Shown piece by piece: positions 2,118-23,876 of a DNA stretch of 64,000 bases (positions are counted from its first letter, which is position 1; every line of letters starts with the position of its first letter). A model generated the notes under the pieces. That model was given only the letters and a program-made list of their open reading frames with translations. It was not told where the DNA came from and did no database searches. Source of the DNA: a virus (Duplodnaviria > Heunggongvirae > Uroviricota > Caudoviricetes); IMG/VR virus record IMGVR_UViG_3300003097_000006; one strand, 5' to 3'. The position numbers and the translations under genes were made by a program.

Positions 2118-2195
2118 TGGTGGATACTTCGGGACTCCAACCCGAGTCTCAGGACCTAAAGCCCTGCGCGCATATGCTTACATCGCCTAGTACCC
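2118..2195 (-). tRNA. atypical tRNA, anticodon UUA as folded (would read the UAA ochre codon); candidate suppressor tRNA
   Basis: The reverse complement folds as: acceptor GGGTACT/AGTATCC; D-stem GCG/CGC; anticodon stem CAGGG/TCCTG; loop CTTTAGG (U33, anticodon TTA); variable loop AGAC; T-arm TCGGG-TTGGAGT-CCCGA; discriminator A plus CCA. Atypical features are A8 and no GG in the D-loop. Confidence 0.45.
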
Positions 2196-4275: not shown

Positions 4276-4595
4276 TAGAAAGGTATCTTGTCGTCAAAGC
4301 CAATCATAGACTGAGCAATACGCTCAATCTCCCTGTCACGCATCTGCTGACGGAAGCACATCTTGTCATATATTTCAATGACCTTTCGTACTTTATCATC
4401 AATGGTGATTTTAGGCTTCACATCGTCAATGAAATGAAGCCTTCGGAAAGGCATGACCAAGTACACAAACTTCGCAGCTTCGAGATTAGTGCGAAGGCAT
4501 ACTCGGTCACCATTGCTCAACTTATAATACACAGAGGTGCTCCAGAATTGTTGCGTCTGATGCCGCGACTGGAACCTCCCAGCCAACGATTTCAA
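4275..4595 (-). CDS. hypothetical protein (106 aa); start uncertain
   Basis: Minus-strand ORF overlapping the 3' end of the ATP-grasp gene by about 74 nt. An internal Met would remove the overlap. Confidence 0.4.
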   Translation of the reverse strand: MKSLAGRFQSRHQTQQFWSTSVYYKLSNGDRVCLRTNLEAAKFVYLVMPFRRLHFIDDVKPKITIDDKVRKVIEIYDKMCFRQQMRDREIERIAQSMIGFDDKIPF

Positions 4596-5781
4596 AGTGA
4601 GACATGCTTACGTCGTACTTACCAACAGTACGCTCACCGTCAACAGTGATTAAATAAACACCGTTGTTTTGGAGAGTTGGAGTGCTATTTGCCAACTGAA
4701 CAGCACGTTCGCCATTACGACGGCTCTGGTTGCTTTGGGTACGGTTTACAGGAGTTGCCCGTAAGTTTTGTGCAGAATCGCCGGACAGCGCAAAGTTTTC
4801 ATCAGCAGCAACTTCTTGTTCAGGAGCCGGTGCTGGCGCTGGGGCAGGTGCAGCTTCACGCTGTAAAGTCTGACGAACGGTACGTGTCTGAGCAGAAGGT
4901 GTGTTGTTCACTTCACGCTGAAGTTCGTCCAGAGAAGGGGCAGGCATCACCTCTTCAACTTCCTGGCCGTTCAGGAGACGCAGCACGTTTGATGCGAAGG
5001 TTGTCAGGTTAGTGCCTGTCATACCTGGAGCGGTATTTACTTCCAGAACCCATGCTTCATCACGACGAGTGATTACATCAACTGCACCGTAATCCAGACC
5101 CAGAGCCTGAATAGCTTTCAGCGCTTCACGCTTAGCCTCTTCATTAAGCTGAGCCATTTGGGTGGCATAAATCCAGCCGGTATGGTAGTTGCGAACTACG
5201 CCAGAATATTCCGGCATGTCAGCGTAACCATCACGACGCTTTTTCTGCTGAACGTAGGTGATTTTACCTTTCATGACGTGAATACGGAACTCACGACGGT
5301 CTGCGGTAATACCACGAGTGTACAACTGGGCGCTTACCGCTGATTCAGAAGTCTGGACACCACCGATGTTTCCCAGGCTGGAAGGGTCGCGGTGACAGGC
5401 AACGATGCCCTCGCCTGAATGGCCCTGGAGTCTTGTGCGGGCATAGACAAGTTCACCGCTGTCAACCCACTCTTGGGCGGTTGTGCGTGAAGTGGTGAAG
5501 TCGACAGTTTTGACTCCAGCATCTGCAAAAGTTCGGAAAGCGGTTGATTTATTGGAAGCGTTGCCAATGCGATGTCCTGGGTTGAGAACGGTAGCACGAC
5601 CGATTACGTGAGAAGGCATGTTGGAATCACCATAGTTAATGATGATATCACCAGCACGGCCTGTGAAATTGGAGTTGTTGCGACGAATTTTAATCAGGTT
5701 GTCACCCTGTGCAGCCACTTCAACTTTCAGTGCATTTACAGTGTCAGAAGCCGCGTGAGACCAGATTGCTAAACGTGCCAT
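4522..5781 (-). CDS. ATP-grasp family ligase (RimK-like) with PAPAPAPAPE linker and extra C-terminal domain
   Basis: The segment ...GAVDVITRRDEAWVLEVNTAPGMTG matches the ExN..PG C-terminal ATP-grasp motif, and the N-terminal half fits an ATP-grasp fold. A (PA)4 linker precedes an approximately 100-aa tail. It sits in a cluster with the GATase and amidoligases. Confidence 0.65.
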   Translation of the reverse strand: MARLAIWSHAASDTVNALKVEVAAQGDNLIKIRRNNSNFTGRAGDIIINYGDSNMPSHVIGRATVLNPGHRIGNASNKSTAFRTFADAGVKTVDFTTSRTTAQEWVDSGELVYARTRLQGHSGEGIVACHRDPSSLGNIGGVQTSESAVSAQLYTRGITADRREFRIHVMKGKITYVQQKKRRDGYADMPEYSGVVRNYHTGWIYATQMAQLNEEAKREALKAIQALGLDYGAVDVITRRDEAWVLEVNTAPGMTGTNLTTFASNVLRLLNGQEVEEVMPAPSLDELQREVNNTPSAQTRTVRQTLQREAAPAPAPAPAPEQEVAADENFALSGDSAQNLRATPVNRTQSNQSRRNGERAVQLANSTPTLQNNGVYLITVDGERTVGKYDVSMSHFEIVGWEVPVAASDATILEHLCVL

Positions 5782-5858
5782 TTTGTATTTACCTTTTCAT
5801 CTATTGGTTGGGAAGAATCTACATTATAAGAGGCTCCGAAGAACCTCTGAAATATAGA

Positions 5859-6110
5859 CTACGCCTCTTTCAAAGCAAGAAGACTTGCAACAATATCACG
5901 ATTCTTAGTTTTAAGACCCGCAATCTCGTCGTCTATAAGGCTGTAGTGATAGGTGAGCATCATCAGTGAAAGTTCGCCATTCGTATGGGAAATCATCTGA
6001 TTGACGTAATACAACTTCTCCTCAAGAAGCTCACCAATACGCTTAAGGTTGTCTTTGCAGAGAGCATCGCTCTCCGCTTTCAACTCCTTCATTACATCCT
6101 TATCGGACAT
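5859..6110 (-). CDS. hypothetical coiled-coil protein (83 aa)
   Basis: Minus-strand ORF. Confidence 0.5.
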   Translation of the reverse strand: MSDKDVMKELKAESDALCKDNLKRIGELLEEKLYYVNQMISHTNGELSLMMLTYHYSLIDDEIAGLKTKNRDIVASLLALKEA

Positions 6111-6340
6111 TAGACCTTAATACCTTTCAGTCGGCAATAATCGGCCAGCATCATGTGAATTGACACTGGATAAGGGATGGCCACTTTAACTCCCTTCTGT
6201 TCTTCGTGGAGACGGACTTGGTAGTCACGTACCGCTCGGAGCATATCTGAACCAAAGTCGGTCATTGGCACTTTACGTACTACAACCGGATTGTCCAGGC
6301 GGAGCATTTTAACTTCTTTCATTGAATTATCCATATTCAT
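6110..6340 (-). CDS. hypothetical protein (76 aa)
   Basis: Minus-strand ORF abutting its neighbours. Confidence 0.5.
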   Translation of the reverse strand: MNMDNSMKEVKMLRLDNPVVVRKVPMTDFGSDMLRAVRDYQVRLHEEQKGVKVAIPYPVSIHMMLADYCRLKGIKV

Positions 6341-6349
6341 CTTTACCTA

Positions 6350-8299
6350 TTACTTGTTGTGGCTTGGAACCATTCCCAGTTCCAATTTTTTAGCGCAGGT
6401 TTCACAGCAAGGTGTGCTACCTACGAATTCTGTCGTTGCTGCCTTTTTGAATGGAATTTTATCATGACACCAAGAGCAGGTGTTCATTTCATTCCACTGA
6501 GACAGCGTGACCTTCATCCCATTTTGAAGAGTTTTACGATACGTCAGAATTGGACGAACGTTGCCCTTCGGTTTGTTAGCGTATTTGTTTGCAAAGCACT
6601 GCAAACAGACACACTCTTTTTCTGACTCTGCATCAACTGGAAGTTCAGTCGAACATTCGATACACTCGAAGCGAAGTTCTCCCAGTTGAGGCTCCCCCTT
6701 TGATTGTGACTCCTTTGGTTCAAGGCCGTCAATAAGACCGGCATCTACGCAGGCGTCACAGTAGGCGAAGTCACGGAACACAGTGGCATCAGCCATGAAG
6801 TCGAAGGGGATTGGAGAGCCACAATTTCCGCAGGAATTTAAACAATCGTGTCTCTCCCACTCCTTTTTTGTATAGACGCTACCATCTCTGGTTACGTCCA
6901 TTTCGTTACCGTCTGATTCCTCTTCTTCCATTTCTGGGTCTTGAGGGACGTCAACGTCGTCAGGAGTGTGTGTCTGAGCAATCAGCGCAGTTCCACGAAC
7001 AGTTGATGCAATGATATGTTCCATTTCATCATCTTCATCAAAATCATCATCCAAAGGAATTGGAGTGACATTGACAGTTTCGTCACGAACATCGCTGACA
7101 ATCAGAGTCAGAATGTAGTTGGCTTCATAAGCCGAGATAACTTTACCAGAGTACAGTTGCTCACCGCCATAGATGTTTTTATCAACACCATGACCCTGAA
7201 CTTCGATGTACTCACCTTCACCAATCCAGCCGGTCAGTTGACCACGCTCAGGATTTTTCGGATATGGTTCGAACTGGAATGCTTCGAACTTAATACGGTC
7301 ACCGATTACAGCATCAACGCCGTGGCTCTGAAGCATCTCATTTAACTGATGATGCTTTTCGAGCGTGGCTCTCATTTCTGATGTTTGATGAGTGTTGCTA
7401 GAAACGCGGTTTGGATAGCTGTTAGCCCCTCGATTATTGTGGGGCCAGCGGCTGTCGTAGTCGTCGTAGTCGTCGTCATACGAGTTATAGCCGCCCGAAT
7501 TCCAGTTGCGATAGTTGTAAGAATAGGTGGAGCGAAAGGTTGGAAGCTCATGCTTCACCTCCTCCCTAAACTTCAGCCCATCGGCGGTATCAAAGATATA
7601 CTGAACACCAACTTCGAGTTCAAACTCTTTTTCAATCGTCGGATTGAACTTCCGGCGAGACATAATCCATTTAATCATGTCTTTTTCGGAAGCACCATAC
7701 CAGTCACCGGTATTGGTTTTCATCATGTAGAAAGGACGCTCATCGTTTCGGATGAAATTCAGAGTGTTCTCTTTAGCATCATGCCAAACCAGAACGAACG
7801 CACCATGCAATTTCTTGATGGTTTCAGCGATACCGATTGTAGCAATCGAATAGCAGACATTTTCACTGTCTACTTCGAAACGCTTGTGGTCTGGTAACAA
7901 AGACTGGTCAACCAGTGAACCATTGTGAACCAGGGTGATATGCTCATGTTGGAAAGGGTGAGCGTTTTTGTCGTTAACCGCACCGGCAGTTGCATAACGG
8001 TTGTGACCAACCATGAACTTCGGATTGATTGAAGACGTCGTTGTTGCCTTCGTAACAGGGTTAACATTTTTGGTTTTGTGTTCTTTAACATCATCCCAGA
8101 TTTGGGAACGAACAAACATGTCACCTGGGATTGCTTTCTTTGCAATCTTAATGAAAGCTTGTTCATTATACGGCTTGTAATAAGCCATGACGCCAGTTGA
8201 GTGTTCACCACGGAAAGTGTCAGCAAACAACATGTTTTCAAAACGTTCGATATTAGCCGACGAAAGTGTCACGCCGCCCACAAATACGATTCCACACAT
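6350..8299 (-). CDS. class-II (Ntn) glutamine amidotransferase fused to a C-terminal array of CxxC zinc ribbons
   Basis: The protein starts MCGIVFVGG with a Cys2 nucleophile and carries GHNRYATAG, both characteristic of GATase class II (GlmS/AsnB/PurF-like). A Tyr/Asp/Asn-rich low-complexity linker follows. The C-terminus has at least 5 CxxC pairs (CGNCG, CDAC, CIEC, CLQC, CSWC, CETC). Confidence 0.7.
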   Translation of the reverse strand: MCGIVFVGGVTLSSANIERFENMLFADTFRGEHSTGVMAYYKPYNEQAFIKIAKKAIPGDMFVRSQIWDDVKEHKTKNVNPVTKATTTSSINPKFMVGHNRYATAGAVNDKNAHPFQHEHITLVHNGSLVDQSLLPDHKRFEVDSENVCYSIATIGIAETIKKLHGAFVLVWHDAKENTLNFIRNDERPFYMMKTNTGDWYGASEKDMIKWIMSRRKFNPTIEKEFELEVGVQYIFDTADGLKFREEVKHELPTFRSTYSYNYRNWNSGGYNSYDDDYDDYDSRWPHNNRGANSYPNRVSSNTHQTSEMRATLEKHHQLNEMLQSHGVDAVIGDRIKFEAFQFEPYPKNPERGQLTGWIGEGEYIEVQGHGVDKNIYGGEQLYSGKVISAYEANYILTLIVSDVRDETVNVTPIPLDDDFDEDDEMEHIIASTVRGTALIAQTHTPDDVDVPQDPEMEEEESDGNEMDVTRDGSVYTKKEWERHDCLNSCGNCGSPIPFDFMADATVFRDFAYCDACVDAGLIDGLEPKESQSKGEPQLGELRFECIECSTELPVDAESEKECVCLQCFANKYANKPKGNVRPILTYRKTLQNGMKVTLSQWNEMNTCSWCHDKIPFKKAATTEFVGSTPCCETCAKKLELGMVPSHNK

Positions 8300-8366
8300 G
8301 GGAAAGTTTCCTCTTGAAACATTTAAAGAAGGGGCTTTATGCCCCTATGATGGACGATAGTTCGTC

Positions 8367-10070
8367 TCAGAAGTTGGCTGTATCTTCGTCGTCTTCTTCG
8401 TCGTAACCTTCGTACTCTTCATCATCGTCTTCAAAAGAAGCACGACGTGGGGCCGGTTGAGGTACACTGCGGGAAGAGTAGAACTCACGATAGAGTTGAC
8501 GATGTTGATTCGGCAACTGACGAGGCACGAACCAGTCAGAGTCGAAGGTAATGCCGCGTTCACGACATTTCTCTTGCAACTCAGCCAACCATTCGAATGT
8601 AATTACATCCGGTGCTGAATCTGGGAACAACCACATACCGTCAGTATGTCGGCGCAATTCACGCTGAAGATGGTTGATATATGGGCTTTCAACCGTCACA
8701 CGCATTCTGCGAGATGTATCATCGGTTTCGTTACGAACGTTGTGAACGTAAACATTACGACGACGACACTTAGCCAGAGAAACCACATCGTGAGCCAGCT
8801 TATAACCAATCTCCATGTCTTGCTCAAAGTCCGGTAAGACTTTAGGCAGACCTTTGCGAATCGCTTGGTGAAGCGGAATCGTCATGAGATATTCGATGAA
8901 CGATGAATCATCGCCTTCGAAGTTCATTGCTAACTCTTTCAGCGAGAGGAAGCGGTTGACCAGGCGAATCAAACGACCTTTACGCCACTTCGCTTCACTG
9001 ATGCGGAACTCGATGGAACCGAAGCTCTGCATTGGAAGCAAGTTCAAGGACGTGTACTTGTCCCAGTTTGAAGCGATGCTACGCATGAAGTTCTGGTCGT
9101 CTTGTTCCCACGCACGAGCCAGAATAGCCAACTGGTCTTGGGCAAAGCCCAAAGCAACACAGAAGTTATTCTTGTAACGATGCCACCCTGAACATTTGAA
9201 CAGGATACGCTCGTAAACAATGTACGCCAGAATCATTCGCTTCAACTGAGGAGCAGTCATGTTACGAACGTCTACGTGGACATGAGTTGAACAACGCCAA
9301 GACTCATCCGGAGAGTTCGTGAACAAGAAGCTGTCGATTTCAATCGCAGCATTGTACAGGTCGCGTCCACCCCACGGAGATGAGCAGACAAATTCCATTC
9401 CGGAATTACGCAGAGAACCATCTGACTTAGCTTCCCAATACTGGAAGTTAGGGGGGTTGGAGGTCATGTTCTCCAATTCAATCTCAACCCCAGCGAGATT
9501 CTGACCCACAATCAGTGGGTGACTCTCAATTGTCGGATACGACGCTCGTTGTCCAAAAACCTGAGCAACAGTAACCATATTATTATCAACCTCTACGTTA
9601 CCAGATATGAAGTTTTCCTGATTAACACTTCCAAAGCTTCCGTTGCCTTGGCGAGGGTGGTCCTCATCAGACCAGTGGTAGACACCACTAACAGCACCAG
9701 GTGCATCATCAACCGGTTCTGTGTGAGCTGCTTGGAAGGGGTCAGAAGTTAGACTACCAGAACCCCCTCCAAAGGCGTGTGCAAATTGGGCATATCGACT
9801 GATTCCACCATTAGTACGTGAACGTGATGATACAGACTGAACTGTACGTTGACCGGATTCAGCTTCTGCTCTTGCACGTTCTTGACGTTCTCGGATTCGA
9901 GCTAAATCTCTGTCCCACATTGCCTGCCACTCATTTACCGCCCTTGTGGCATCTTCTGTTGGTGGAGCAGGTGGTGGAGCAGAAGCCTCACGGGCCTCTG
10001 CTTCTAAACGATTCCGGTCATTTTCAGACCGGATATGAGCCATTAACTCGTCGAAACTACGGTTTGGCAT
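8367..10070 (-). CDS. glutamine-synthetase-fold amidoligase (Amidoligase_2-like) with low-complexity N-terminus and acidic C-terminal tail
   Basis: Motifs VEIELENM, SGMEFVCSSP, THVHVDV and GSIEFRISEAKWRKGR give the Glu/Glu, HxH and ExR constellation of GS-like/GCS2 amidoligases. The protein is 567 aa. Confidence 0.6.
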   Translation of the reverse strand: MPNRSFDELMAHIRSENDRNRLEAEAREASAPPPAPPTEDATRAVNEWQAMWDRDLARIRERQERARAEAESGQRTVQSVSSRSRTNGGISRYAQFAHAFGGGSGSLTSDPFQAAHTEPVDDAPGAVSGVYHWSDEDHPRQGNGSFGSVNQENFISGNVEVDNNMVTVAQVFGQRASYPTIESHPLIVGQNLAGVEIELENMTSNPPNFQYWEAKSDGSLRNSGMEFVCSSPWGGRDLYNAAIEIDSFLFTNSPDESWRCSTHVHVDVRNMTAPQLKRMILAYIVYERILFKCSGWHRYKNNFCVALGFAQDQLAILARAWEQDDQNFMRSIASNWDKYTSLNLLPMQSFGSIEFRISEAKWRKGRLIRLVNRFLSLKELAMNFEGDDSSFIEYLMTIPLHQAIRKGLPKVLPDFEQDMEIGYKLAHDVVSLAKCRRRNVYVHNVRNETDDTSRRMRVTVESPYINHLQRELRRHTDGMWLFPDSAPDVITFEWLAELQEKCRERGITFDSDWFVPRQLPNQHRQLYREFYSSRSVPQPAPRRASFEDDDEEYEGYDEEDDEDTANF

Positions 10071-10648
10071 TCTGGGTACTCCTGACTCACTGAACGAAGC
10101 AAATGAGCCGCCTCTGGGAACAGCTCAATGCCTTCCCCGACGAACTTACCGATGTACACGTCTTTATAACGCAAATCATCATCAGTTTTGAGGAAGACGT
10201 TGCCAGACACTTCAGGATACTTGTGCTCACTAAAGAACTCAGCGATTGTATCCCAATCGAACACTGGCATTCCGCAAACACGGCGACTTGTCAGACCTTT
10301 CTTGGTCGAACGATTCGCACGATACGAAACCCAATAATAACGATTACGCCACTTAATGTAGCGAGAGTCTGGAAGTTCCAGAACCAACTTCTCGTCAGTG
10401 TGAGGAACTGAACGGTTTTCGTAATTACCGTTCGGATAACGAACTGTTCCGTGGAACACCAGAGCATCCAGTGCATCATCAGAGAAACCTAAAGTCTCAC
10501 GGTCAGATGCACTCATTGCTCGCAGGTTCATCACATTGTTATCGTGAGTTACCGCTTCAATTTGAAACGGCAACAAACCATGTTCAGGGTCACGATAACC
10601 GACGTAAGTCGAACAGTAATACATTCCGAAATCGTCGGATAAAGCCAT
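10043..10648 (-). CDS. hypothetical protein (201 aa) located between the two amidoligase paralogs
   Basis: Minus-strand ORF with no recognisable motif. Its position suggests it belongs to the ligase cluster. Confidence 0.55.
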   Translation of the reverse strand: MALSDDFGMYYCSTYVGYRDPEHGLLPFQIEAVTHDNNVMNLRAMSASDRETLGFSDDALDALVFHGTVRYPNGNYENRSVPHTDEKLVLELPDSRYIKWRNRYYWVSYRANRSTKKGLTSRRVCGMPVFDWDTIAEFFSEHKYPEVSGNVFLKTDDDLRYKDVYIGKFVGEGIELFPEAAHLLRSVSQEYPECQTVVSTS

Positions 10649-10658
10649 CTTGTGCTCC

Positions 10659-11462
10659 TTAGCAGATGTTCAACATACGGATGAACTGTTCCGCCATGTG
10701 TTTGTCGTTGTTGTTGATTGCCTTCTGAATATCTTCAGGGTTAACAATCGACACCATCTCCATGTAATCACCCTGAGACATGTCGAACGCTTTATGAGCC
10801 TGTTCCCAAGCCCAGCGACGATTATCGTCATTGGCAATCCAGAAGTTAGACAGAACACGATATTCAATACCGTACTCTTTGAAACGGCAAGCACCCGCTT
10901 TGCCATACAGCTCTTTACGACGGTCGTCGCCGTCCAGAAGAAGTGCAGGCAGACCCAGATAGTAATCACACATTACACCCATAACCTTCTGAAGTTCAGA
11001 GGTTACAGGAACCACACCGCTTACGCCAATGTGAATGTGACCACCTGCTGTACGGAGGCCTGGGTCAGCAGCAGCCGGTTTAGGGTTACGCATACCGGTC
11101 AGAGCATTGTAATCCGGCTCACAACCGAATACGAATGCATCTTTGTGGAATGATAATAACTCTTCCGGCGTGAAGATGTGAGAACTCACACCGAGAATAA
11201 CTTCGTGACCAACTTCTGCAACAGCCTCTTGACATAAGTCAATGCCGCGCTTAATGTTGTCATTGAAGCCGTCAAAATCACCATGCGGGTTGGTATCAAA
11301 CTCAACCAGCACGTTATCTTCCTGAATACGAATGTCGTCCGTGACTACCTTTTTGTTGTACTTGTCCGCTCCCAGCAGACCTGCAACTGAACTGATAAGG
11401 TTGCTGCTCACATTACGGGTGAACAGTTCAGGGTCAGTTGCCAACAAAATGACTTTAGACAT
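10659..11462 (-). CDS. second glutamine-synthetase-fold amidoligase paralog (267 aa)
   Basis: VLVEFDTNPHGDFDG, GGHIHIG and EYGIEYRVL reproduce the E-x-E, HxH and E-x-R pattern of GS-like amidoligases. Confidence 0.55.
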   Translation of the reverse strand: MSKVILLATDPELFTRNVSSNLISSVAGLLGADKYNKKVVTDDIRIQEDNVLVEFDTNPHGDFDGFNDNIKRGIDLCQEAVAEVGHEVILGVSSHIFTPEELLSFHKDAFVFGCEPDYNALTGMRNPKPAAADPGLRTAGGHIHIGVSGVVPVTSELQKVMGVMCDYYLGLPALLLDGDDRRKELYGKAGACRFKEYGIEYRVLSNFWIANDDNRRWAWEQAHKAFDMSQGDYMEMVSIVNPEDIQKAINNNDKHMAEQFIRMLNIC

Positions 11463-14972: not shown

Positions 14973-15153
14973 ACTTTAAAGCCAATGTAAACTGTGGATA
15001 ACCTGTTCTTTTACTCTATTCGGCGGATGTTCGAGCATTTGCTCTCCCTAGCACCGAAGCCATACGGCAATTGTTTAAAAGAATAGGTTAGTGAGTTACC
15101 CTGTTAAAATAACTCCAATAGCCCTCTCGTAAGAAGGCTATAAGTGTTACTTA

Positions 15154-16895: not shown

Positions 16896-17117
16896 TCACC
16901 CCTCCTTAGAAACACTTCCAGAAAATTTAACCTTGAAGTATTTCTTCAAATGCTCCACAGACATATACGCCAGCACAACATCAATGCCAGCACCCAGCAC
17001 TGATGCGTTGCGTACATCGTAGATAAACAGGAAGAACAGAATAACTAAAAACACCATATGTGCATACGGTGTATTCAGAAAGTCTGCAACCTTATTCAGC
17101 TTTGACTTAAAGCTCAA
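16896..17117 (-). CDS. small membrane protein (73 aa)
   Basis: Hydrophobic segment HMVFLVILFFLFIY. Its start overlaps the NAMPT stop. Confidence 0.45.
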   Translation of the reverse strand: MSFKSKLNKVADFLNTPYAHMVFLVILFFLFIYDVRNASVLGAGIDVVLAYMSVEHLKKYFKVKFSGSVSKEG

Positions 17118-18784
17118 AACAGCCCCTTAGCTACGGCTTCTTTCACCGTGCGGTCAACGTATGATTCGATACGTGCCAGCACTTCATCACCGCTTTCAGT
17201 GAAGATTTCACCGTTGCGGTAGATAGTTACCAGCGCAGTGTCTGCTTCTTCTTCAACAGTAGCCTGGTCTTTGAAAGTCCAGTTACCGTTTTCATCGACG
17301 AAGTGAGCCATCAAGCCTTTAGCAGACTTTTTGGTGCCATCGTCAGTTGCAGGGTCTTTGAAGATTTCGCGGGCTTCACCATTAACGATGCCCCACGTCG
17401 CTTTCATAGCCCAGCCCAGCGTGTCACGAGTGACATACTGATAGGTGAACGAGCCGATACCCAGCACAACGTTGCTAGAGGCAAAGCCCTTAGCTTTGAG
17501 ACGCTGGAAGATTTCGAGCTGACGTTCCAGAGAGATTGAATCGCCGTAAATCAGGCCGATTTGAGGAGCGAGGACTTTGTAGCCTTTGGAGTTGATTTCA
17601 CCACCAAAAGTATCCCACAGAATCTGAATCGCACCTTTCACTTCCGCTTCTGACTTTTTAGTCACGCAGAAGTAACCGCCGTTGAAGTACGCATAGGTGA
17701 AGTATTCATCACCAATCTGTACAACATACGAACCATTTTCCGGCAGGTCGTTAGCATCATCCAGCATCCACTGACGTGCAATGTTCTCGTCTTTGAAACG
17801 AGCCACAACAGTGAATCCACAGATAATGTCTTCCGGAACACCGGAATCAGGACGAACAACCAGCTTACCATCACGTTCCATGATGATATCTTTGATGCTC
17901 GGCAGGGTGATTGTCAGAACATCCCAGAAGTTCCAGGTGTCAGACACGACCGACAGAATACCGGTAGTGTAGACTTCGGTCAGAAGACGAATGAACGTCT
18001 GGCGCTCATCATCTTTACCACCCATGCACATTACTGAATGCTCAGTAGCATTTACAGAGCCACCACGACCAGCTTCGGTCGGATAATGCTCATTGAAACG
18101 CTCACGGGCAAACACAGAGTCTGTCCCGTTGTAAGCCATCATATGACCAATACCGGTCAGACTGTTAGCCCACATGCCCATGCTCCCACGAGCAGCAAAG
18201 TCATGACCCTGCCACTGAACGTGGTCGTTGTTGTCGCAGGTCAGCTCAGCGAAGTATTCGCTCATCAGACGGAAGCTGAGTGCAGTCGTTGCAGAGGTAG
18301 CAACAGGCCACAGTTCAGCGCTCATCAACGTTTCCAAATAGTTCGGAATCCAGTAGAAATCGTCGATGGTGTTGATGATGGTAATCGGAGGACATTTAAC
18401 TTCCACCACATTACCTTCCGGCACTGCTTTAACGTGAATCGGCAGGTAGCCGAGTTTGTGCAGTTCATAGAACGGCTTCACGTCATAGTCGGTGTACAAA
18501 TAACTGTTAACCGATGCACGGAATTTCTCAACCACTTCTTCAGCGGGTTGGTTAAAGAAGTTGGTCTGAAACTCGTCGACCAGCCACTGAAGCATGAAGG
18601 TCTGAGCACCAACCCAAAGGATTGGAGAACCAGCTTCACCACGGAGGGCTTTGAAGAACGGAGATTTCAGATACTTGTTCGCACGAGGCGTAAAGTTACT
18701 GTACACGCGAGTAGTACCTTCTGGGTACTGAGCGCGGTGACCGAGTTTATAGCCGTCAATCGCAAAGATAGGACTAATTTTCAT
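17114..18784 (-). CDS. nadV: nicotinamide phosphoribosyltransferase (NAMPT/NadV-like)
   Basis: The N-terminus ...SPIFAIDGYKLGHRAQYPEGTTRVYSNFTPR matches the conserved NAMPT N-terminal block (DSYK..H...YP). Size is about 556 aa. The start is trimmed to Met15, giving a TAATG overlap with the Prs stop. Confidence 0.8.
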   Translation of the reverse strand: MKISPIFAIDGYKLGHRAQYPEGTTRVYSNFTPRANKYLKSPFFKALRGEAGSPILWVGAQTFMLQWLVDEFQTNFFNQPAEEVVEKFRASVNSYLYTDYDVKPFYELHKLGYLPIHVKAVPEGNVVEVKCPPITIINTIDDFYWIPNYLETLMSAELWPVATSATTALSFRLMSEYFAELTCDNNDHVQWQGHDFAARGSMGMWANSLTGIGHMMAYNGTDSVFARERFNEHYPTEAGRGGSVNATEHSVMCMGGKDDERQTFIRLLTEVYTTGILSVVSDTWNFWDVLTITLPSIKDIIMERDGKLVVRPDSGVPEDIICGFTVVARFKDENIARQWMLDDANDLPENGSYVVQIGDEYFTYAYFNGGYFCVTKKSEAEVKGAIQILWDTFGGEINSKGYKVLAPQIGLIYGDSISLERQLEIFQRLKAKGFASSNVVLGIGSFTYQYVTRDTLGWAMKATWGIVNGEAREIFKDPATDDGTKKSAKGLMAHFVDENGNWTFKDQATVEEEADTALVTIYRNGEIFTESGDEVLARIESYVDRTVKEAVAKGLF

Positions 18785-19674
18785 TAGACACCTGAGTAGT
18801 TGAGTGTACGAGCCAAATGTCCGCAATCATAGATGCGAACCTGCGGGTTGTCTTCGTGAGGTTTCTCACAGAAGGACACTGAGTTTGTAGTGTAGATTTT
18901 ATCCACACCACGACTGAGCAGGTGGTCGTAACCTTTACTAAAGATTCCGTGAGTTACCACCAGTTCGACTGTCTTAGCCCCAGCCTTTTTCAGGGCTTCG
19001 GCAGCACCGATGAAGGTCATACCACCGTCGCAAATATCATCGAAGATAACGCAACGACGGCCTTCAAGAGAAGACAGTGAACAGTCAACGATACGCATAC
19101 CGACAATATTGCCAGTCGCCACGTCACGCTCTTTATCCAGAACAACCAAGCCGATACTCGGCACGACCTTCTGAATACCATGAATTTTCTTCAGAGCACC
19201 GGCATCAGGAGAAACGATTACAATATCGTCACCCTGGGTTAAGCCATAGTGAAGAGGGTTGATTTGAAGCAAACGAGCCTGAGGAATGTTGAACACATTG
19301 TCAATCAAACCTGGGCCAACATCAGAGTGAGCATCAAACACGATGATTGAATCGAGTTCAAGTGCATTTAACTGCTTAGCGAACACTTTAAGAGTGAACG
19401 CATCGTTCTGAACCATGCGACGGTCTTGACGTGCATATGGCAGATACGGCATGAACAGGCAGATACGCATACGCGGATTGATGAATCGCAGAATATCTAC
19501 CACGCAAGCAACTTCAAAGAATTGATGTTGCGGGTCAGTGTCAGCCGTAACACTGATTGTAGCGCTTTCACATTGACGAGGCAGAACCCCTAACAACTGA
19601 ACACGCAAAGCACCGTCACTGAAACGTCCAGATTCGATGGATACATCGAGCGAATTAACCTTAAGATTAATCAT
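18784..19674 (-). CDS. prs: ribose-phosphate pyrophosphokinase (PRPP synthetase)
   Basis: PYLPYARQDRR, FDAHSD and VIFDDICDGGMT are the classic Prs motifs. The start is trimmed to MINLKV (ATG 19672-19674) with an AGAGG ribosome-binding site. Confidence 0.8.
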   Translation of the reverse strand: MINLKVNSLDVSIESGRFSDGALRVQLLGVLPRQCESATISVTADTDPQHQFFEVACVVDILRFINPRMRICLFMPYLPYARQDRRMVQNDAFTLKVFAKQLNALELDSIIVFDAHSDVGPGLIDNVFNIPQARLLQINPLHYGLTQGDDIVIVSPDAGALKKIHGIQKVVPSIGLVVLDKERDVATGNIVGMRIVDCSLSSLEGRRCVIFDDICDGGMTFIGAAEALKKAGAKTVELVVTHGIFSKGYDHLLSRGVDKIYTTNSVSFCEKPHEDNPQVRIYDCGHLARTLNYSGV

Positions 19675-20009
19675 ATTGCCTCTGTATGAAGGGTGGTAAC
19701 CACACTGCCAGCCTGGCCTAAAAACACGGGAACAGAAAATCCACATAAAAGGTTTTACCCAGGATTTTAAGAGCCTTACAAACTATCGTTTGATGGTCGC
19801 CGTCTGGGCAACCAATGAGGCTTATTCAACTAACTTTTAATTGAGCGCCATGCCCATACTGAGTGTTAACAGCTGAGTCTTAAGTTTTAACCCGGTGCGG
19901 TTTTACGGCTGCCCGGTTAGCCCCTAGGTTTCAATTAGCAGTTGAATGCCACTATCGCTGTGGCTTGCGTTCTGTTTTAGTTTTAACAGCAGGTGATTAC
20001 CGATTTTGT

Positions 20010-20651
20010 TTACGCCGCTGGGACTTCGATTTGAGTCGCTGCGTTTGTTTCGTTCAGTGCAACGTCGACTTCCTGCTCGAACACCTCAATTTCGTTCAAC
20101 TGAGTTGTGATGAACTGTTGCAGGTCAACCGGTGCAACGATGGAAGGAGTACCACGCTTACGCATGTCTTCAATCGTCGTCTTCACCAGGTCTTCGTTCG
20201 TATTGTCGGCCTGTTCTTTCGAATAGGCGTCGATACGGTTTTCAAGCTCAGTCTTCTTCGTACCAACCGTCGCTGATACTGAACGGAGCTGCATCTGAAG
20301 GCGTAACAGGAACGCTTTGCGACTCACGACGAATTTCTTCATCTCAATCGCTTCCGCCAGCGTGTATGTCTTTTCGCCAACCTTCACAGTAGTTTGTGCA
20401 TTAGCCGTAACCACTGCTCGCTTGACCAACTCACGGCGAAGGATTAACGCTTGCAGTGAGTCGAAGTTACCTTTCAGCGCTGCTTTGAGCGATTCAAGGT
20501 CTTTGAAAGTGTTATCATTAGGTTTGGCGAGTTCGCCTTCACCCAACACAACACTCACAACTGGTAGGGCTGCCGCACGTTCAATGCGACCTCCCAGTGA
20601 TTTCAATTCTACCAACGCACGAGCGATGGAGATTTTAGTTGTTCCCGACAT
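20010..20651 (-). CDS. hypothetical protein (about 213 aa, start at MSGTTK)
   Basis: ATG 20649-20651 has an AAGAGG ribosome-binding site. The track start 20720 overlaps the upstream gene. Confidence 0.5.
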   Translation of the reverse strand: MSGTTKISIARALVELKSLGGRIERAAALPVVSVVLGEGELAKPNDNTFKDLESLKAALKGNFDSLQALILRRELVKRAVVTANAQTTVKVGEKTYTLAEAIEMKKFVVSRKAFLLRLQMQLRSVSATVGTKKTELENRIDAYSKEQADNTNEDLVKTTIEDMRKRGTPSIVAPVDLQQFITTQLNEIEVFEQEVDVALNETNAATQIEVPAA

Positions 20652-21363
20652 TTTGAAGACCTCTTGGGGGTGGAGTAACAAATTTGCGATGGTCGAAATC
20701 AAGCCCTTCAATTTCACCAATCACACGGTAAGTTGTGTTCATAGTTTCAATGAACCAAACCTGAGCAATGCAGTAAATCTGTTTGATACTGCTGGTGTGG
20801 ATGTGAGTACCATCACGGAATGGATGATGCCCCGTGGTCATTTTATCATCAAAGATATTGCCCCACGCTATCGCACGACTCTTGTCCAGGTTGTACTGGA
20901 TGAAGCAACGACCAAGTCGAGCATCAAAGTGATGCTGCTTAGGTGCTTTAATCAAACCGGTAAGCAGTGGATTTTCATCCGCTGTAAACGATGAGAATGC
21001 GTTACGTTCATACATGATTTTGAAGTCACGAGCGAACTGACGCAGGCGGTTTGGGTTAAGACGCAGTACGTTCTTCTGGAAGCCACGTAACTGAACCGGG
21101 TCCATTAACTTCATGGAACCATCAACAGCGACACGGCTACCGACTGAGGTTGCCATGCACAGGTATTCATAACGACCACACCAGACATACAACAGTTGAC
21201 CGATTTCGAATTCAGTGAAGTCAGTCAACTCTGCCAGCACTTTGGTAGTGCCAATTGCCAGAGGTTCAGGGAACTTCTTATTGAACAGATGAGGAAAACG
21301 CTCAATCAGTTCAGGCATACGGCGGCTGTAGAAATCATATTGAACAGGAGAAACTGGACGCAT
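20635..21363 (-). CDS. ProQ/FinO-domain RNA-binding-like protein with an unknown C-terminal domain
   Basis: The N-terminus ...MPELIERFPHLFNKKFPEPLAIGTTKVLAEL resembles the ProQ N-terminal block (ERFPHCF...PLKIG). ATG 21361-21363 has a GAGAGGTG ribosome-binding site. Confidence 0.5.
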   Translation of the reverse strand: MRPVSPVQYDFYSRRMPELIERFPHLFNKKFPEPLAIGTTKVLAELTDFTEFEIGQLLYVWCGRYEYLCMATSVGSRVAVDGSMKLMDPVQLRGFQKNVLRLNPNRLRQFARDFKIMYERNAFSSFTADENPLLTGLIKAPKQHHFDARLGRCFIQYNLDKSRAIAWGNIFDDKMTTGHHPFRDGTHIHTSSIKQIYCIAQVWFIETMNTTYRVIGEIEGLDFDHRKFVTPPPRGLQNVGNN

Positions 21364-21456
21364 CTTAACACCTCTCATTGTTAGTTGACATATAACTAAT
21401 AAAGCCCACTTATCAACCACCCCTCTAAGAAGGGAAGCTGTAAATGGGCTTGATAG

Positions 21457-21579
21457 TTACATGAGTGATTTAATCTTATCCACTGCCAATTGCACAGCAG
21501 ATACAAACAAGGCAATCAGAATTGCTCCGATGCCACCTTTAATTGCAACCACCACACAATCAACAATGAATTGAGACAT
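21457..21579 (-). CDS. small hydrophobic peptide (40 aa) upstream of the SPFH gene
   Basis: An AGGTGA ribosome-binding site precedes ATG 21577-21579. The translation is MSQFIVDCVVVAIKGGIGAILIALFVSAVQLAVDKIKSLM. It is below the ORF-track cutoff. Confidence 0.3.
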   Translation of the reverse strand: MSQFIVDCVVVAIKGGIGAILIALFVSAVQLAVDKIKSLM

Positions 21580-21593
21580 GAATCACCTATGAA

Positions 21594-22514
21594 TTATTTG
21601 GAACGACTGTCGAAGATGGTAGAACCGGCGTAGCCAGCACCCATAACAGTGTTCGGAACGCCACCCTGGTATTTATCAGCAATGGTCTGCTGAACATCCA
21701 GTTCTTTCCAGCGAATCATCTCAGGTGTGATGGTCTGCTGAAGGGCACGGTTAGCTTCTGCTTCTTTCTTAGCTGCGTACAGCTTAGCATCAGCATCACG
21801 TTCGTTCGCCTGAGCGGCGTTAGCACGAGACTCTTTCGCTGCTACAGAAGTAACAACTTGCTGTTGAGCAATCTGTTCTTTCTTAGCCAGTTCAGCTTTC
21901 TCAGCGTTCACCTCTTCTTCACGAATCTTGGTGTTAGTCACCTGAGTCATGATTACTTCCGGCAGGGTGATGTCCTGCAAGAAGATTTCCTTAACGGTAT
22001 AACCGTAAGGACGGGCATACGCTTCGATTTCTGCTTTCACAGAATCTTGCAACTGAGCCTGGATTTCAGCATTGAAAAGGTCTTGAGCTTTCGGCACTGA
22101 CTTACCGAACTCGCGGACAGTAGAGAGCAATTTCTGCTCAACATACTTATCCAGCGCCTGGTCCTGAGTACCAGCGTTGATGCGGTTCATTGGCGCTTTA
22201 GAGCCATCAAACTGCAACATGACAGTCATATCCACAGTGGATTTGAACTTGTCCTGGCTAGGAACCTGGAGCTTGTCGTATGAGATTTTAATATCCTTCG
22301 TGGAGAAGGTATCAAAACTTGCAAACGGGTTCACGATGTGGAAGCCCGGCTTGACAGGTGCAGTTGAAACTTTACCCAGGAAGGTCTGAGTCTTAACCGT
22401 ACCGTCTTGCACAACGGTGTAGGAGTTGAGGCCAACAATCAGTGCAACGACTGCAACCAGACCACCTAAACCCCACTTCTTAAACTTCTTGAACAAGTCT
22501 TGCTCACGAGACAT
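21594..22514 (-). CDS. SPFH/band-7 (HflK/C, stomatin/prohibitin-like) membrane protein
   Basis: An N-terminal transmembrane segment (GLGGLVAVVALIVGL) is followed by YTVVQDGTVKTQTFLGKV, typical of the band-7 core. The C-terminus is a long Ala/Glu/Lys-rich coiled coil. Confidence 0.65.
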   Translation of the reverse strand: MSREQDLFKKFKKWGLGGLVAVVALIVGLNSYTVVQDGTVKTQTFLGKVSTAPVKPGFHIVNPFASFDTFSTKDIKISYDKLQVPSQDKFKSTVDMTVMLQFDGSKAPMNRINAGTQDQALDKYVEQKLLSTVREFGKSVPKAQDLFNAEIQAQLQDSVKAEIEAYARPYGYTVKEIFLQDITLPEVIMTQVTNTKIREEEVNAEKAELAKKEQIAQQQVVTSVAAKESRANAAQANERDADAKLYAAKKEAEANRALQQTITPEMIRWKELDVQQTIADKYQGGVPNTVMGAGYAGSTIFDSRSK

Positions 22515-22599
22515 GGATTAACCTTATCAGTTAGTTGTTGAAACCGGAGCCAACATGACTCCGAACAAACCCTCTCGTAAGAGGGCTTGCGCAGAGCAC

Positions 22600-23808
22600 T
22601 TAGCTGAACAGACGTTCCAGCATGTCTTTCTCAGTCTTCGCCTTCATAGGCTCGACGATTACAGTGAACAGCTTGCCGTCAACCTGACGTTCGAAGCGAG
22701 CACCTTTTGTAGTGCTGAAGGTGTCGGTCGCTGTATCCAGGCGCAGGTAGGCTTTGAATGGGGTTTCAAAGTCTTCCAGGTCTTCTTCAGTAGGTTCACG
22801 CTCTTTGGAGATTTCCACCAGTTCACGGTTGTAGTGATAGCAGTTGGATTTGCCCATCGCGCTGATGAAGGTCGCCATGTCTTTCCAGTTATCGAGTTCG
22901 AACCCGATGTTGAACAAGTGGCTACCTTCGTGTACAGCAACCAGGTCAACCATAACGTGAGCGTCATGAACTTTCAGCTCTTCGTCACCCCAGGTAACTT
23001 TGGTGGTGCGGCAGTGCATACGAGTTGCTTCACCCAGAGTCACGTTCATGTCCAGAATCAGGTCAACGAAGTTGGCGTCAGGGTAACGGTTGAGTTCTTC
23101 AACAACAGACTGCAACACGTCGAAGGACATGTCAGTGCTGATACCCCAGAACACGCGGATTTTCGGCAGGAAGTCTTTATTGACCAGCACGTCGTTACAG
23201 TAGCCAATCAGAACTTCTTCTTCCAGCTTGACGTAACGCCAGTGATAGAAGAAACGGCTTGGACGAGACAGCAGGAATTCACTGACCTGACCATCGTTGG
23301 TAGTCGCCAGGAACAGCTTGTTGTTAACGCCAGTGCCGTCCAGCAGGGACAGGAGGCCGTTCTGTTTGTCGTGGTCGTTGTATTTCTTCTCGAACTCGTC
23401 GATGAATACGACAACCGGCTGAGTGATGGAGTTCATGAACTGGTTGAACTCAGTACCCATGTACGCTTCTTCAATCAGAAGAACAGGTTTGTCTTCTTCA
23501 AGCGCCAGGGCGCAGATGGTACGGGACAGCAGGGTTTTGCCAGAGCCTTTGTTACCAGACAGCAGTACGCCGGTGTTCTTGTCCGTGCGGCTGTTGAAGG
23601 TGTTCAGCACTTTACGAGCACGAGGCTCAACAGTACCGTACAGCTTCTCAGGCAGAGTCATGTCAGCCTGACGACGCAGGAAGAAACCGCCAGCCATAGG
23701 GTTGTAATCAACCACATAGACGCCGGTTGGGATAGCAGGAATCTCATCACCACGGTCAGACGCAGTGAATACATTCTTGCCACGGGCTACAAAATGTTGC
23801 TGTTCCAT
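22600..23808 (-). CDS. classical AAA ATPase with unknown C-terminal domain
   Basis: Walker A (LLSGNKGSGKTLL), Walker B (VVVFIDEFE), sensor-1 (ATTN) and arginine finger (LLSRPSRFF). It lies immediately upstream of the SPFH gene on the same strand. Confidence 0.7.
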   Translation of the reverse strand: MEQQHFVARGKNVFTASDRGDEIPAIPTGVYVVDYNPMAGGFFLRRQADMTLPEKLYGTVEPRARKVLNTFNSRTDKNTGVLLSGNKGSGKTLLSRTICALALEEDKPVLLIEEAYMGTEFNQFMNSITQPVVVFIDEFEKKYNDHDKQNGLLSLLDGTGVNNKLFLATTNDGQVSEFLLSRPSRFFYHWRYVKLEEEVLIGYCNDVLVNKDFLPKIRVFWGISTDMSFDVLQSVVEELNRYPDANFVDLILDMNVTLGEATRMHCRTTKVTWGDEELKVHDAHVMVDLVAVHEGSHLFNIGFELDNWKDMATFISAMGKSNCYHYNRELVEISKEREPTEEDLEDFETPFKAYLRLDTATDTFSTTKGARFERQVDGKLFTVIVEPMKAKTEKDMLERLFS

Positions 23809-23876
23809 GTTACTTCCTCTTTTGTTTGCATTACAGTAAAAGTGAATAAGCCCTCTCGAAAGAAGGCTTAAGCAAA

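What the first reader, a model, noticed from the sequence alone, without database searches (positions are those of the whole stretch)
21457..23808. AAA ATPase, SPFH/band-7 protein and small membrane peptide operon
A classical AAA ATPase (Walker A GSGKT, Walker B DEFE, sensor-1 ATTN, arginine finger SRPSRFF) is followed on the same strand by an SPFH/band-7 membrane protein (N-terminal transmembrane segment, YTVVQDGTVKTQTFLGKV core, long coiled coil) and a 40-aa hydrophobic peptide. In bacteria, SPFH proteins (HflK/C) cage the AAA protease FtsH. SPFH domains also occur in several anti-phage systems. A phage-encoded AAA-SPFH pair is unusual. It could remodel host membrane proteostasis, control lysis timing, or counteract a membrane-based defence. 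The ATPase C-terminal roughly 200 aa have no obvious protease motif.
Basis: partly seen in the sequence, partly recalled or inferred. Interest (0 to 1): 0.7.

Follow-up and report, generated by a model that had tools for sequence, protein, structure and literature searches.

The report
Neighbouring phage AAA ATPase and SPFH genes
The three genes are real, but the ATPase and the SPFH membrane protein are two separately mobile, already catalogued phage gene families of unknown function that are neighbours in only a few related phages, so a dedicated ATPase–SPFH machine is unlikely.

Summary
The window is a Salmonella phage 7-11 relative (Moazamivirus, about 90% nucleotide identity). All three minus-strand genes are real. 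The first is a soluble classical-clade AAA ATPase (22600-23808). The second is a single-pass SPFH/Band_7 protein (21594-22514). The third is a 40-aa membrane peptide under purifying selection (21457-21579).

The proposed functional pair is weakly supported. The SPFH gene is the ortholog of T5.080 and RB43ORF139c and occurs in 724 phage records. In nine genomes where I centred on SPFH, no copy of this ATPase lay nearby. The ATPase family occurs in 397 records. Outside Moazamivirus, SPFH was adjacent to it in 1 of 12 sampled genomes (Proteus phage Privateer).

In 7-11-like contigs SPFH occupies at least four different positions. One contig has SPFH 98.7% identical over the 77 residues held (ATPase 66%), lying 4.8 kb upstream of the ATPase. 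The ATPase has no transmembrane segment and no protease domain. The bulk of SPFH is predicted to be periplasmic. SPFH plus the peptide look like a compact unit bracketed by conserved hairpins.

Both families are already annotated in close relatives, and neither has a known function.

The parts
22600..23808 (-). Soluble classical-clade AAA+ ATPase (402 aa). It has a small N-terminal beta domain (about residues 1-50), an AAA core plus lid (about 60-255) and a C-terminal alpha/beta domain (about 255-402) with no known fold relative. It is the ortholog of 7-11 gp125.
22515..22599 (-). Structured 85-nt spacer between the ATPase and SPFH genes. It contains the hairpin motif AGCCCTCTTACGAGAGGGTT (22568-22587).
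   Evidence: The 88-nt stretch 22515-22602 (the spacer plus the ATPase stop codon) folds at -32 kcal/mol with z -4.1. The motif occurs 3 times in the window against 0 expected. The spacer is 95-99% identical in all Moazamivirus relatives. It does not meet the scan's intrinsic-terminator criteria, and no sigma-70-like promoter lies between the genes.
21594..22514 (-). SPFH/Band_7 membrane protein (306 aa). It has a K/R-rich N-terminal tail, one transmembrane helix, an SPFH domain and a long helical C-terminal region. It is the ortholog of T5.080, RB43ORF139c and 44RRORF098c.
   Evidence: Band_7 1.6e-18 and PHROG 200 2.4e-77. It matches 724 phage records and is 72-77% identical to the T5 and RB43 proteins. 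The family profile hits QmcA at 3.5e-8, HflC at 4e-5 and prohibitins at 1e-4. In 31 of 32 homologs there are more K/R residues before the transmembrane helix than after it, and none has a lipobox.
21457..21579 (-). 40-aa single-pass membrane peptide that starts 14 nt after the SPFH stop codon and has its own GGTGA ribosome-binding site.
   Evidence: It shows 19 synonymous versus 6 non-synonymous codon differences against pSal-SNUABM-01, and KD19 is 2.53. It is found only in the four Moazamivirus phages (6 records). It has no Pfam, PHROG, NCBIfam or PADLOC hit.
21364..21456 (-). Long conserved hairpin between the peptide gene and the ProQ/FinO-like gene. It closes the SPFH+peptide unit on its downstream side.
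   Evidence: The 97-nt stretch 21364-21460 (this spacer plus the end of the peptide gene) folds at -38.1 kcal/mol with z -5.7, and none of 200 shuffles folds as well. It is 96/97 identical in pSal-SNUABM-01, although the adjacent peptide gene differs at 25 of 40 codons.
23847..23870 (-). Terminator-like hairpin upstream of the ATPase gene. It is the third copy of the hairpin motif.
   Evidence: The terminator scan reports a 10-bp stem followed by a T-rich tail. It is conserved in relatives.

Best explanation
These are three genuine genes in the early (leftward) accessory region of a 7-11-like Salmonella phage. They are best read as two independent functional units that happen to be neighbours in this lineage.

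Unit 1 is a soluble classical-clade AAA+ ATPase. By analogy with that clade, I infer that it forms a cytoplasmic ring. It would use ATP and an aromatic pore loop to unfold or remodel an unknown host or phage protein. The small N-terminal beta domain and the lineage-specific C-terminal domain would supply substrate or partner recognition. It has no protease domain of its own.

Unit 2 is the SPFH gene plus the tightly following 40-aa membrane peptide, bracketed by conserved RNA hairpins. The SPFH protein is anchored by one N-terminal helix. The positive-inside rule predicts a cytoplasmic N-tail and a periplasmic bulk, the same orientation as HflK/C. By analogy with QmcA, HflK/C and prohibitin, I infer that it self-assembles into a ring or cage on the outer face of the inner membrane. 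That would alter envelope physiology early in infection, for example by corralling or shielding inner-membrane proteins such as FtsH, or by stabilising the membrane so the infected cell stays productive. It does this without the ATPase, as it must in T5, RB43 and hundreds of other phages.

Shown: gene reality, domain identities, the independent distribution, the variable position of SPFH, and the absence of a transmembrane segment and a protease in the ATPase.

Inferred: oligomeric state, topology, targets and physiological effect.
For: Identity and family.

Independent distribution:
- SPFH occurs in 724 phage records and the ATPase in 397, with largely different host and organism spectra.
- ATPase-centred loci: SPFH is adjacent in 1 of 12 non-Moazamivirus genomes and within about 5 kb in 4 of 12.
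- SPFH-centred loci: the ATPase is present in 0 of 9.

SPFH is mobile within 7-11-like genomes:
- It lies between the ATPase and ProQ here.
- It lies 4.8 kb upstream of the ATPase in L007. There SPFH is 98.7% identical over the 77 residues seen, while the ATPase is 66%, ProQ 42% and the T5.085-like protein 59% identical.
- It lies between two TerD genes in L025.
- It lies inside the amidoligase cluster in L026.

The recurrent downstream neighbour of the ATPase is a ProQ/FinO-like gene, preceded by small ORFs.

The 7-11 reference keeps an intact ATPase but carries a 2-nt deletion that splits SPFH.

Compartments differ. The ATPase has no transmembrane segment. In SPFH the N-terminal charge bias favours an N-in, C-out orientation in 31 of 32 homologs.

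SPFH and the peptide are 14 nt apart and flanked by hairpins of -32 and -38 kcal/mol, which are conserved more strongly than the neighbouring peptide gene.

A chromosomal Morganella homolog (55% identical) stands alone.
Against: The two genes are adjacent, at the same site between the ATPase and a ProQ-related gene, in two genera of Grimontviridae (Moazamivirus and Privateervirus). They also lie within 3-5 kb of each other in Lahexavirus, L007 and L008. This is more clustering than random placement in a 90-kb genome would give, although accessory genes all concentrate in this early region.

SPFH proteins partnered with AAA proteases are a recurring theme in cells (HflKC-FtsH, prohibitin-m-AAA).

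Topology rests only on the positive-inside rule. The best PDB sequence match is QmcA, which from my own knowledge faces the cytoplasm.

No expression, localisation or interaction data exist. No mechanism for either protein has been tested in any phage.
Confidence: 0.68

Rival explanations
1. The AAA ATPase and the SPFH protein, with the small peptide, form one membrane-proteostasis machine analogous to FtsH-HflK/C or m-AAA-prohibitin. In it the SPFH ring would recruit or cage the phage ATPase at the inner membrane.
For: The genes are co-directional with no sigma-70-like promoter between them. They are adjacent in Moazamivirus and Privateer and near each other in Lahexavirus, L007 and L008. The ATPase belongs to the same classical AAA clade as FtsH. 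The SPFH profile matches HflC at 4e-5.
Against: Most genomes carry one gene without the other. The ATPase has no transmembrane segment and no protease domain. The SPFH bulk is predicted to be periplasmic, leaving only about 15 poorly conserved cytoplasmic residues for contact. A nearly identical SPFH sits 10 genes away from the ATPase in L007. A structured 85-nt spacer separates the two genes. SPFH is frameshifted in the viable 7-11 reference.
Confidence: 0.12
2. The SPFH+peptide unit is a membrane-level competition or protection module. It would act in superinfection exclusion, or as a counter-measure to membrane-targeting abortive-infection effectors or colicin-like pores, rather than as a regulator of proteolysis.
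For: The family is confined largely to virulent phages and is exchanged between unrelated families such as T5-like, T4-like and 7-11-like phages; one paper also reports an SPFH-like gene in an N4-like phage (PMC13239085). It lies in early or accessory regions (PMC8948821). In L025 it sits between TerD genes next to TerC, and from my own knowledge Ter genes are linked to phage and colicin resistance. Small, unrelated membrane ORFs lie next to it in RB43, 44RR, LAh_6 and 5P1b.
Against: There is no PADLOC hit, no experimental data, and published work says the function 'remains unclear' (PMC13239085). The neighbouring small ORFs are not homologous, and T5 and Privateer have none. A standalone chromosomal homolog in Morganella suggests a housekeeping-type scaffold.
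Confidence: 0.25
3. The ATPase is a replication-type AAA+ protein, such as a DnaC-like helicase loader, an Hda/DnaA-like regulator or a clamp-loader subunit, rather than a protein unfoldase.
Confidence: 0.1

Closest known systems
Salmonella phage 7-11 gp125 / SE131 gp139 (PHROG 2376 'ATPase')
   Same: It is 99.3% identical over all 402 aa and sits in the same genomic position. The same family is found in Lahexavirus, phi92-like and phAPEC8-like phages, jumbo Erwinia and Cronobacter phages, Herelleviridae and crAss-like phages.
   Different: Nothing substantive differs, and no member has a known function. In the more distant members only the first about 260 residues are shared, and the C-terminal domain differs.
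Phage T5 T5.080, RB43ORF139c and 44RRORF098c (PHROG 200, labelled 'lipoprotein')
   Same: The architecture is the same, and identity is 59-77% over nearly the full length.
   Different: Those phages lack the ATPase and the 40-aa peptide. The N-terminal tails differ. The 'lipoprotein' label is not supported, because none of the 32 homologs has a lipobox.
E. coli HflK/HflC-FtsH complex
   Same: Both involve an SPFH protein with an N-terminal anchor and a predicted periplasmic bulk, next to a classical-clade AAA protein. The SPFH profile matches HflC at 4e-5.
   Different: The SPFH protein gave no NCBIfam match at all at E 0.01, so no HflK or HflC model hit it. The ATPase has no transmembrane helices, no periplasmic domain and no M41 protease (FtsH_fam 15.9 bits against a cutoff of 600). 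There is a single SPFH gene rather than a K/C pair. The pairing is not conserved.
E. coli QmcA and other stomatin-type SPFH proteins with NfeD partners
   Same: QmcA is the best solved-structure sequence match (3.5e-8). Both have a single N-terminal anchor and a small membrane-protein gene immediately downstream.
   Different: From my own knowledge, QmcA faces the cytoplasm, whereas the charge bias here predicts the opposite orientation. The 40-aa peptide has no NfeD match and is too short for the NfeD OB-fold.
BCS1, YjoB and p97-D2 type classical AAA remodellers
   Different: Identity is only 17-19%. The N- and C-terminal domains are unrelated. There is no membrane anchor, unlike BCS1.

Membership tests
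Classical AAA clade (Pfam PF00004) | Score above the Pfam gathering threshold | tested here: met
   33.4 bits against a cutoff of 21.2.
Classical AAA clade (Pfam PF00004) | Walker A GxxGxGK[ST], Walker B hhhhDE and a sensor-1 polar residue | tested here: met
   G85, G88, G90, K91, D137, E138 and N171 are invariant in 62 homologs.
Classical AAA clade (Pfam PF00004) | Second region of homology with two arginines (the RPGRFD-like segment) | tested here: met
   In the SRPSRF segment, R182, P183 and R185 are invariant. The best profile hits are p97/Cdc48 D2.
Classical AAA clade (Pfam PF00004) | Pore loop 1 with an aromatic-hydrophobic-Gly motif | tested here: inconclusive
   The window has Y116-M-G118. 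Position 116 is F/Y in 52/62 homologs and position 118 is G in 44/62, but the middle residue is often small or polar.
Classical AAA clade (Pfam PF00004) | Hexameric ring with ATP-driven substrate threading | not testable with these tools
   This needs biochemistry or cryo-EM.
FtsH-type AAA protease | N-terminal transmembrane helices | tested here: not met
   Maximum KD19 is 1.04, with no hydrophobic segment.
FtsH-type AAA protease | C-terminal M41 zinc peptidase with a conserved HEXXH motif | tested here: not met
SPFH / Band_7 superfamily (PF01145) | SPFH domain above the Pfam threshold | tested here: met
   67.8 bits against a cutoff of 23.6, covering residues 42-209.
SPFH / Band_7 superfamily (PF01145) | N-terminal membrane anchor and a helical region after the SPFH domain | tested here: met
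   A hydrophobic segment at residues 15-35 is present in all 32 homologs. Residues 154-253 align with the helical regions of QmcA and HflC. No 3D model of this protein was made.
SPFH / Band_7 superfamily (PF01145) | Assembly into large ring or cage oligomers | not testable with these tools
   This is inferred from the QmcA, HflK/C and prohibitin structures only.
HflK / HflC | Match to the HflK or HflC equivalog models | tested here: not met
   The SPFH protein gave no NCBIfam hit of any kind at E 0.01. The match to HflC in the PDB is only a distant profile hit at 4e-5.
HflK / HflC | Physical association with FtsH | not testable with these tools
   This needs co-purification from infected cells.
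SPFH-NfeD operon | Downstream NfeD partner (PF01957, OB-fold) | tested here: not met
   The 40-aa peptide has no Pfam hit and is too short for the domain.
Bacterial lipoprotein (the PHROG 200 label) | Lipobox [LVI][ASTVI][GAS]C at the end of a signal peptide | tested here: not met
   None of the 32 homologs has a lipobox, and the window protein has no Cys in its first 45 residues.
Known anti-phage defence systems (PADLOC-DB 2.0) | Significant match to a defence-protein model | tested here: not met
   There are no hits for SPFH, the peptide, the ProQ-like protein or the T5.085-like protein. The ATPase has only P-loop-level hits at E of 1e-3 or weaker.
Conserved AAA-SPFH gene pair (the finding's own proposal) | Adjacency maintained in related phages | tested here: not met
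   The genes are adjacent in Moazamivirus and Privateer only. They are non-adjacent or one is absent in L007-L013, BUCT695, Lahexavirus, PD06 and tuntematon. SPFH occurs without the ATPase in T5, RB43, 44RR, Aeh1, 5P1b and L025-L027.

The most novel reading that the evidence does not exclude
The T5.080-type phage SPFH protein, here with its 40-aa membrane partner, may build a periplasm-facing cage on the host inner membrane. In this reading the cage is a widespread, so far uncharacterised host-takeover or counter-defence device of virulent enterobacterial phages. In the 7-11/Privateer lineage it would additionally cooperate with the neighbouring soluble AAA unfoldase through its short cytoplasmic tail, giving a split, phage-encoded analogue of the FtsH-HflK/C system.
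Probability: 0.1. Interest if true: 0.65.

Novelty: already known. Interest (0 to 1): 0.27.

Why it matters
Nothing new is established by this window. The same genes, 98-99% identical, are already deposited and annotated in phages 7-11 and SE131.

The wider question is still open and testable. An SPFH scaffold protein is carried by more than 700 sequenced virulent phages, including the model phage T5, and no function has been assigned (PMC13239085 says the reason 'remains unclear'). A classical AAA ATPase family found in about 400 phage genomes is equally uncharacterised.

Knowing that the two are independent units tells an experimenter how to proceed. SPFH (plus the peptide) and the ATPase should be studied separately. 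T5 or RB43 are better genetic systems for the SPFH question than the 7-11 group.

Tried and rejected
- PADLOC and NCBIfam scans gave no defence-system or HflK/HflC/FtsH membership.
- A Foldseek search against AFDB50 for the C-terminal domain could not be run because the library was unavailable.
- I tested whether the 438-aa antisense ORF over the ATPase (annotated as a CDS in SeKF_80) could be a gene. It acquires stops in homologs, including pSal-SNUABM-01, so it is a codon-register shadow ORF.
- I tested whether the 40-aa peptide travels with SPFH. It does not. It is confined to Moazamivirus, and the small membrane ORFs next to SPFH in other phages are unrelated to it.
- Literature searches for functional work on phage SPFH/T5.080 or this ATPase family found nothing beyond annotation remarks.
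- The sigma-70 promoter scan found no promoter inside the cluster and fewer sites than in shuffled sequence, so it does not inform operon structure.
Full report
**What the window is.** The region 20000-24200 matches Salmonella phage 7-11 (Moazamivirus, Grimontviridae) at 90.8% nucleotide identity over its full length. It also matches SE131, SeKF_80 and pSal-SNUABM-01 at 88.6-90.2%. In those records the three genes of the finding are annotated as 'ATPase', as 'lipoprotein' (or 'SPFH_like_u3', or hypothetical) and as a 123-nt hypothetical gene. In the 7-11 gene-expression papers this leftward-transcribed part of the genome belongs to the early host-takeover cluster. It is transcribed from sigma-70 promoters upstream of gene 151, probably as very long read-through transcripts (PMC8948821, PMC4331800).

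The 306-aa protein matches Band_7 at 67.8 bits (cutoff 23.6) and PHROG 200 at 2.4e-77. A profile of 32 homologs matches QmcA (3.5e-8), HflC (4e-5) and the prohibitins (1e-4).

The 40-aa ORF is a real gene. Against pSal-SNUABM-01 it shows 19 synonymous and only 6 non-synonymous codon differences, and it encodes one hydrophobic helix.

Starting from the ATPase, tblastn finds the family in 397 phage records. These include phi92-like and phAPEC8-like coliphages, jumbo Erwinia and Cronobacter phages, Herelleviridae and crAss-like phages. A fold search of viral models agrees. The neighbourhoods were as follows:
- Proteus phage Privateer (ATPase 28% identical) has SPFH immediately downstream.
- Aeromonas Lahexavirus phages (48%) have two unrelated genes in between.
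- Contig L007 (66%) has SPFH 4.8 kb and ten genes upstream.
- L008 (62%) has a different Band_7 protein five genes upstream. That protein is not detectable with this SPFH by tblastn.
- L009-L013 (33-44%), BUCT695 (Grimontviridae, 44%), PD06 and tuntematon have no Band_7 gene within 3.5-6 kb.

Starting from SPFH, the family is in 724 phage records. In T5 it is T5.080, standing alone between a tRNA gene and a terminator. I also examined RB43, 44RR2.8t, Aeh1, Vibrio phage 5P1b, three metagenomic contigs (L025-L027) and the Morganella morganii chromosome. None has this ATPase nearby.

Within 7-11-like genomes the SPFH gene sits in at least four different places:
- between the ATPase and the ProQ-like gene (this window and Privateer);
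- upstream of the ATPase (L007);
- between two TerD genes downstream of NAMPT-TerC (L025);
- inside the amidoligase/GATase/ATP-grasp cluster (L026), whose counterpart in the window lies at 4.5-11.5 kb.

The L007 copy is 98.7% identical to the window's SPFH over the 77 residues held. The flanking ATPase, ProQ-like and T5.085-like proteins are only 66%, 42% and 59% identical. This shows recent exchange of SPFH independently of its neighbours.

The gene that recurs downstream of the ATPase is not SPFH but a ProQ/FinO-domain gene, preceded by small ORFs (L007, L008, L009, BUCT695). SPFH plus the peptide therefore look like an insertion between the two in the Moazamivirus/Privateervirus branch.

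Finally, the 7-11 reference sequence carries a 2-nt deletion that splits SPFH into gp124 and gp123 while its ATPase is intact. If this is not a sequencing error, SPFH is dispensable for growth of a phage that keeps the ATPase.

**Anatomy of the locus.** SPFH and the peptide gene are 14 nt apart, and the peptide has a GGTGA ribosome-binding site. An 85-nt spacer separates the ATPase from SPFH. Folded together with the stop codon (22515-22602), it forms a -32 kcal/mol hairpin (z -4.1). The stretch 21364-21460, which is the 93-nt spacer between the peptide and the ProQ-like gene plus the last 4 nt of the peptide gene, folds into a -38 kcal/mol hairpin (z -5.7).

These spacers are 95-99% identical across the Moazamivirus phages. 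This holds even in pSal-SNUABM-01, whose peptide gene differs at 25 of 40 codons. The core motif AGCCYTCTTNCGAGAGGGYT occurs three times in the window against none expected. One copy, upstream of the ATPase, meets terminator criteria. No sigma-70-like promoter lies within the cluster.

The simplest reading is one long early transcript punctuated by conserved structured elements, which could be terminators under antitermination, processing sites or stabilisers. Within it, SPFH plus the peptide form the only tightly coupled pair. Sequence alone cannot decide operon structure.

**How it most likely works.** I infer that the ATPase is a cytoplasmic ring-forming unfoldase or remodeller acting on an unknown substrate. 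This rests on its clade, its motifs and its lack of a membrane anchor. It cannot degrade proteins itself.

The SPFH protein has a K/R-rich tail before its single transmembrane helix in 31 of 32 homologs, and no lipobox in any. The positive-inside rule therefore puts the N-tail in the cytoplasm and the SPFH and helical regions in the periplasm, as in HflK/C. The database label 'lipoprotein' is unsupported.

By analogy with solved SPFH assemblies, it probably forms a ring or cage on the outer face of the inner membrane. With only about 15 poorly conserved cytoplasmic residues, it offers little surface for a soluble ATPase. What the cage does is unknown. I consider two possibilities the most likely, and neither is tested:
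- modulation or shielding of inner-membrane proteins (FtsH-like targets), or stabilisation of the membrane;
- a competition or protection role, such as superinfection exclusion or resistance to membrane-acting defences.

**Comparison with known systems and novelty.** The proteins are 99.3% (7-11 gp125) and 98% (SE131) identical to deposited proteins. Both belong to catalogued PHROG families. SPFH domains in T4-like phages were tabulated in 2006 (PMC1524935). A 2026 paper still states that the reason for SPFH in phage genomes 'remains unclear' (PMC13239085). I found no functional study of either family.

The locus fails the defining features of FtsH (transmembrane helices, M41 protease), of HflK/HflC equivalogs, of SPFH-NfeD operons and of any PADLOC defence system. 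I therefore rate it as already known at the level of what is present, with unknown function.

The proposed AAA-SPFH coupling is unlikely (about 0.1) but not excluded, because the two genes do sit together in two genera.

**Verdict.** The domain calls are right; the idea of an unusual functional pair is mostly contradicted by comparative genomics. Interest is modest. The open biology concerns the widespread T5.080-type SPFH protein and the orphan phage AAA family as separate problems, not this particular neighbourhood.

Noticed in passing
window 22555-23871 (+): A 438-aa ORF runs antisense across the whole ATPase gene and is longer than the ATPase itself. The SeKF_80 GenBank record annotates this antisense ORF instead of the ATPase. 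The codon-register antisense frame has 0-9 stops in homologs, including 2 in pSal-SNUABM-01, so it is a shadow ORF and that annotation is probably wrong.
   Followed up: yes
window 15120-15139, 22568-22587, 23849-23868 (-); and 21364-21460 (-): An intergenic hairpin motif, AGCCYTCTTNCGAGAGGGYT, occurs three times against none expected. A separate, very stable long hairpin (-38 kcal/mol) follows the peptide gene. These spacers are 95-99% identical among Moazamivirus phages, which is more conserved than the neighbouring peptide gene. They may be terminators under antitermination, RNase processing sites or cassette boundaries.
   Followed up: partly
L001 (phage 7-11, NC_015938) about 10373-10376, equivalent to window about 22375: The 7-11 reference genome has a 2-nt deletion (TTCCTGGGT to TTC--TGGT) that splits the SPFH gene into gp124 and gp123. 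This is either a sequencing error or a natural knockout in a viable phage.
   Followed up: partly
window 20635-21363 (-): This ORF encodes a phage ProQ/FinO-domain protein (Pfam 1.1e-6) with an extra C-terminal domain. A ProQ-like gene recurs downstream of the ATPase in L007, L008, L009 and BUCT695. Privateer has a 71-aa protein resembling only its C-terminal part.
   Followed up: partly
window 2118-2195 (-): ARAGORN calls a tRNA with anticodon TTA ('tRNA-Stop'), which would read UAA. It lies next to a tRNA-Leu(AAG) and could be a phage suppressor tRNA or a miscalled tRNA.
   Followed up: no
window 20010-20720 (-): This is a homolog of T5.085. It is labelled 'tail fiber protein' by PHROG 1491 and RefSeq but 'septicolysin-like' in pSal-SNUABM-01. 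It lies in the early accessory region next to NAD-salvage genes, so the tail-fibre label looks doubtful.
   Followed up: no
L025 4076-6590; L026 2723-7186: In other 7-11-like contigs the SPFH gene lies between two TerD genes next to TerC (L025), or inside the phiEco32-type amidoligase/GATase/ATP-grasp cluster (L026). This hints at a link with membrane-stress (Ter) modules.
   Followed up: partly
L014 3884-3982 (RB43); L015 3891-4109 (44RR2.8t); L004 4771-4908 (LAh_6); L023 1216-1395 (Vibrio 5P1b): Small, mutually unrelated hydrophobic ORFs lie directly beside the SPFH gene in several phage families. They are a 32-aa unannotated ORF, a 72-aa pilin-like protein, a 45-aa ORF and a 59-aa ORF. T5 and Privateer have none. 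This could be a recurrent 'SPFH + mini membrane partner' arrangement or coincidence.
   Followed up: partly
window 17114-19746 (-) and 4522-11462 (-): The window carries an NAD-salvage pair (NAMPT plus PRPP synthase). It also carries a phiEco32-type cluster of ATP-grasp, glutamine amidotransferase, amidoligase and COOH-NH2 ligase genes. Both are known features of 7-11-like phages.
   Followed up: no
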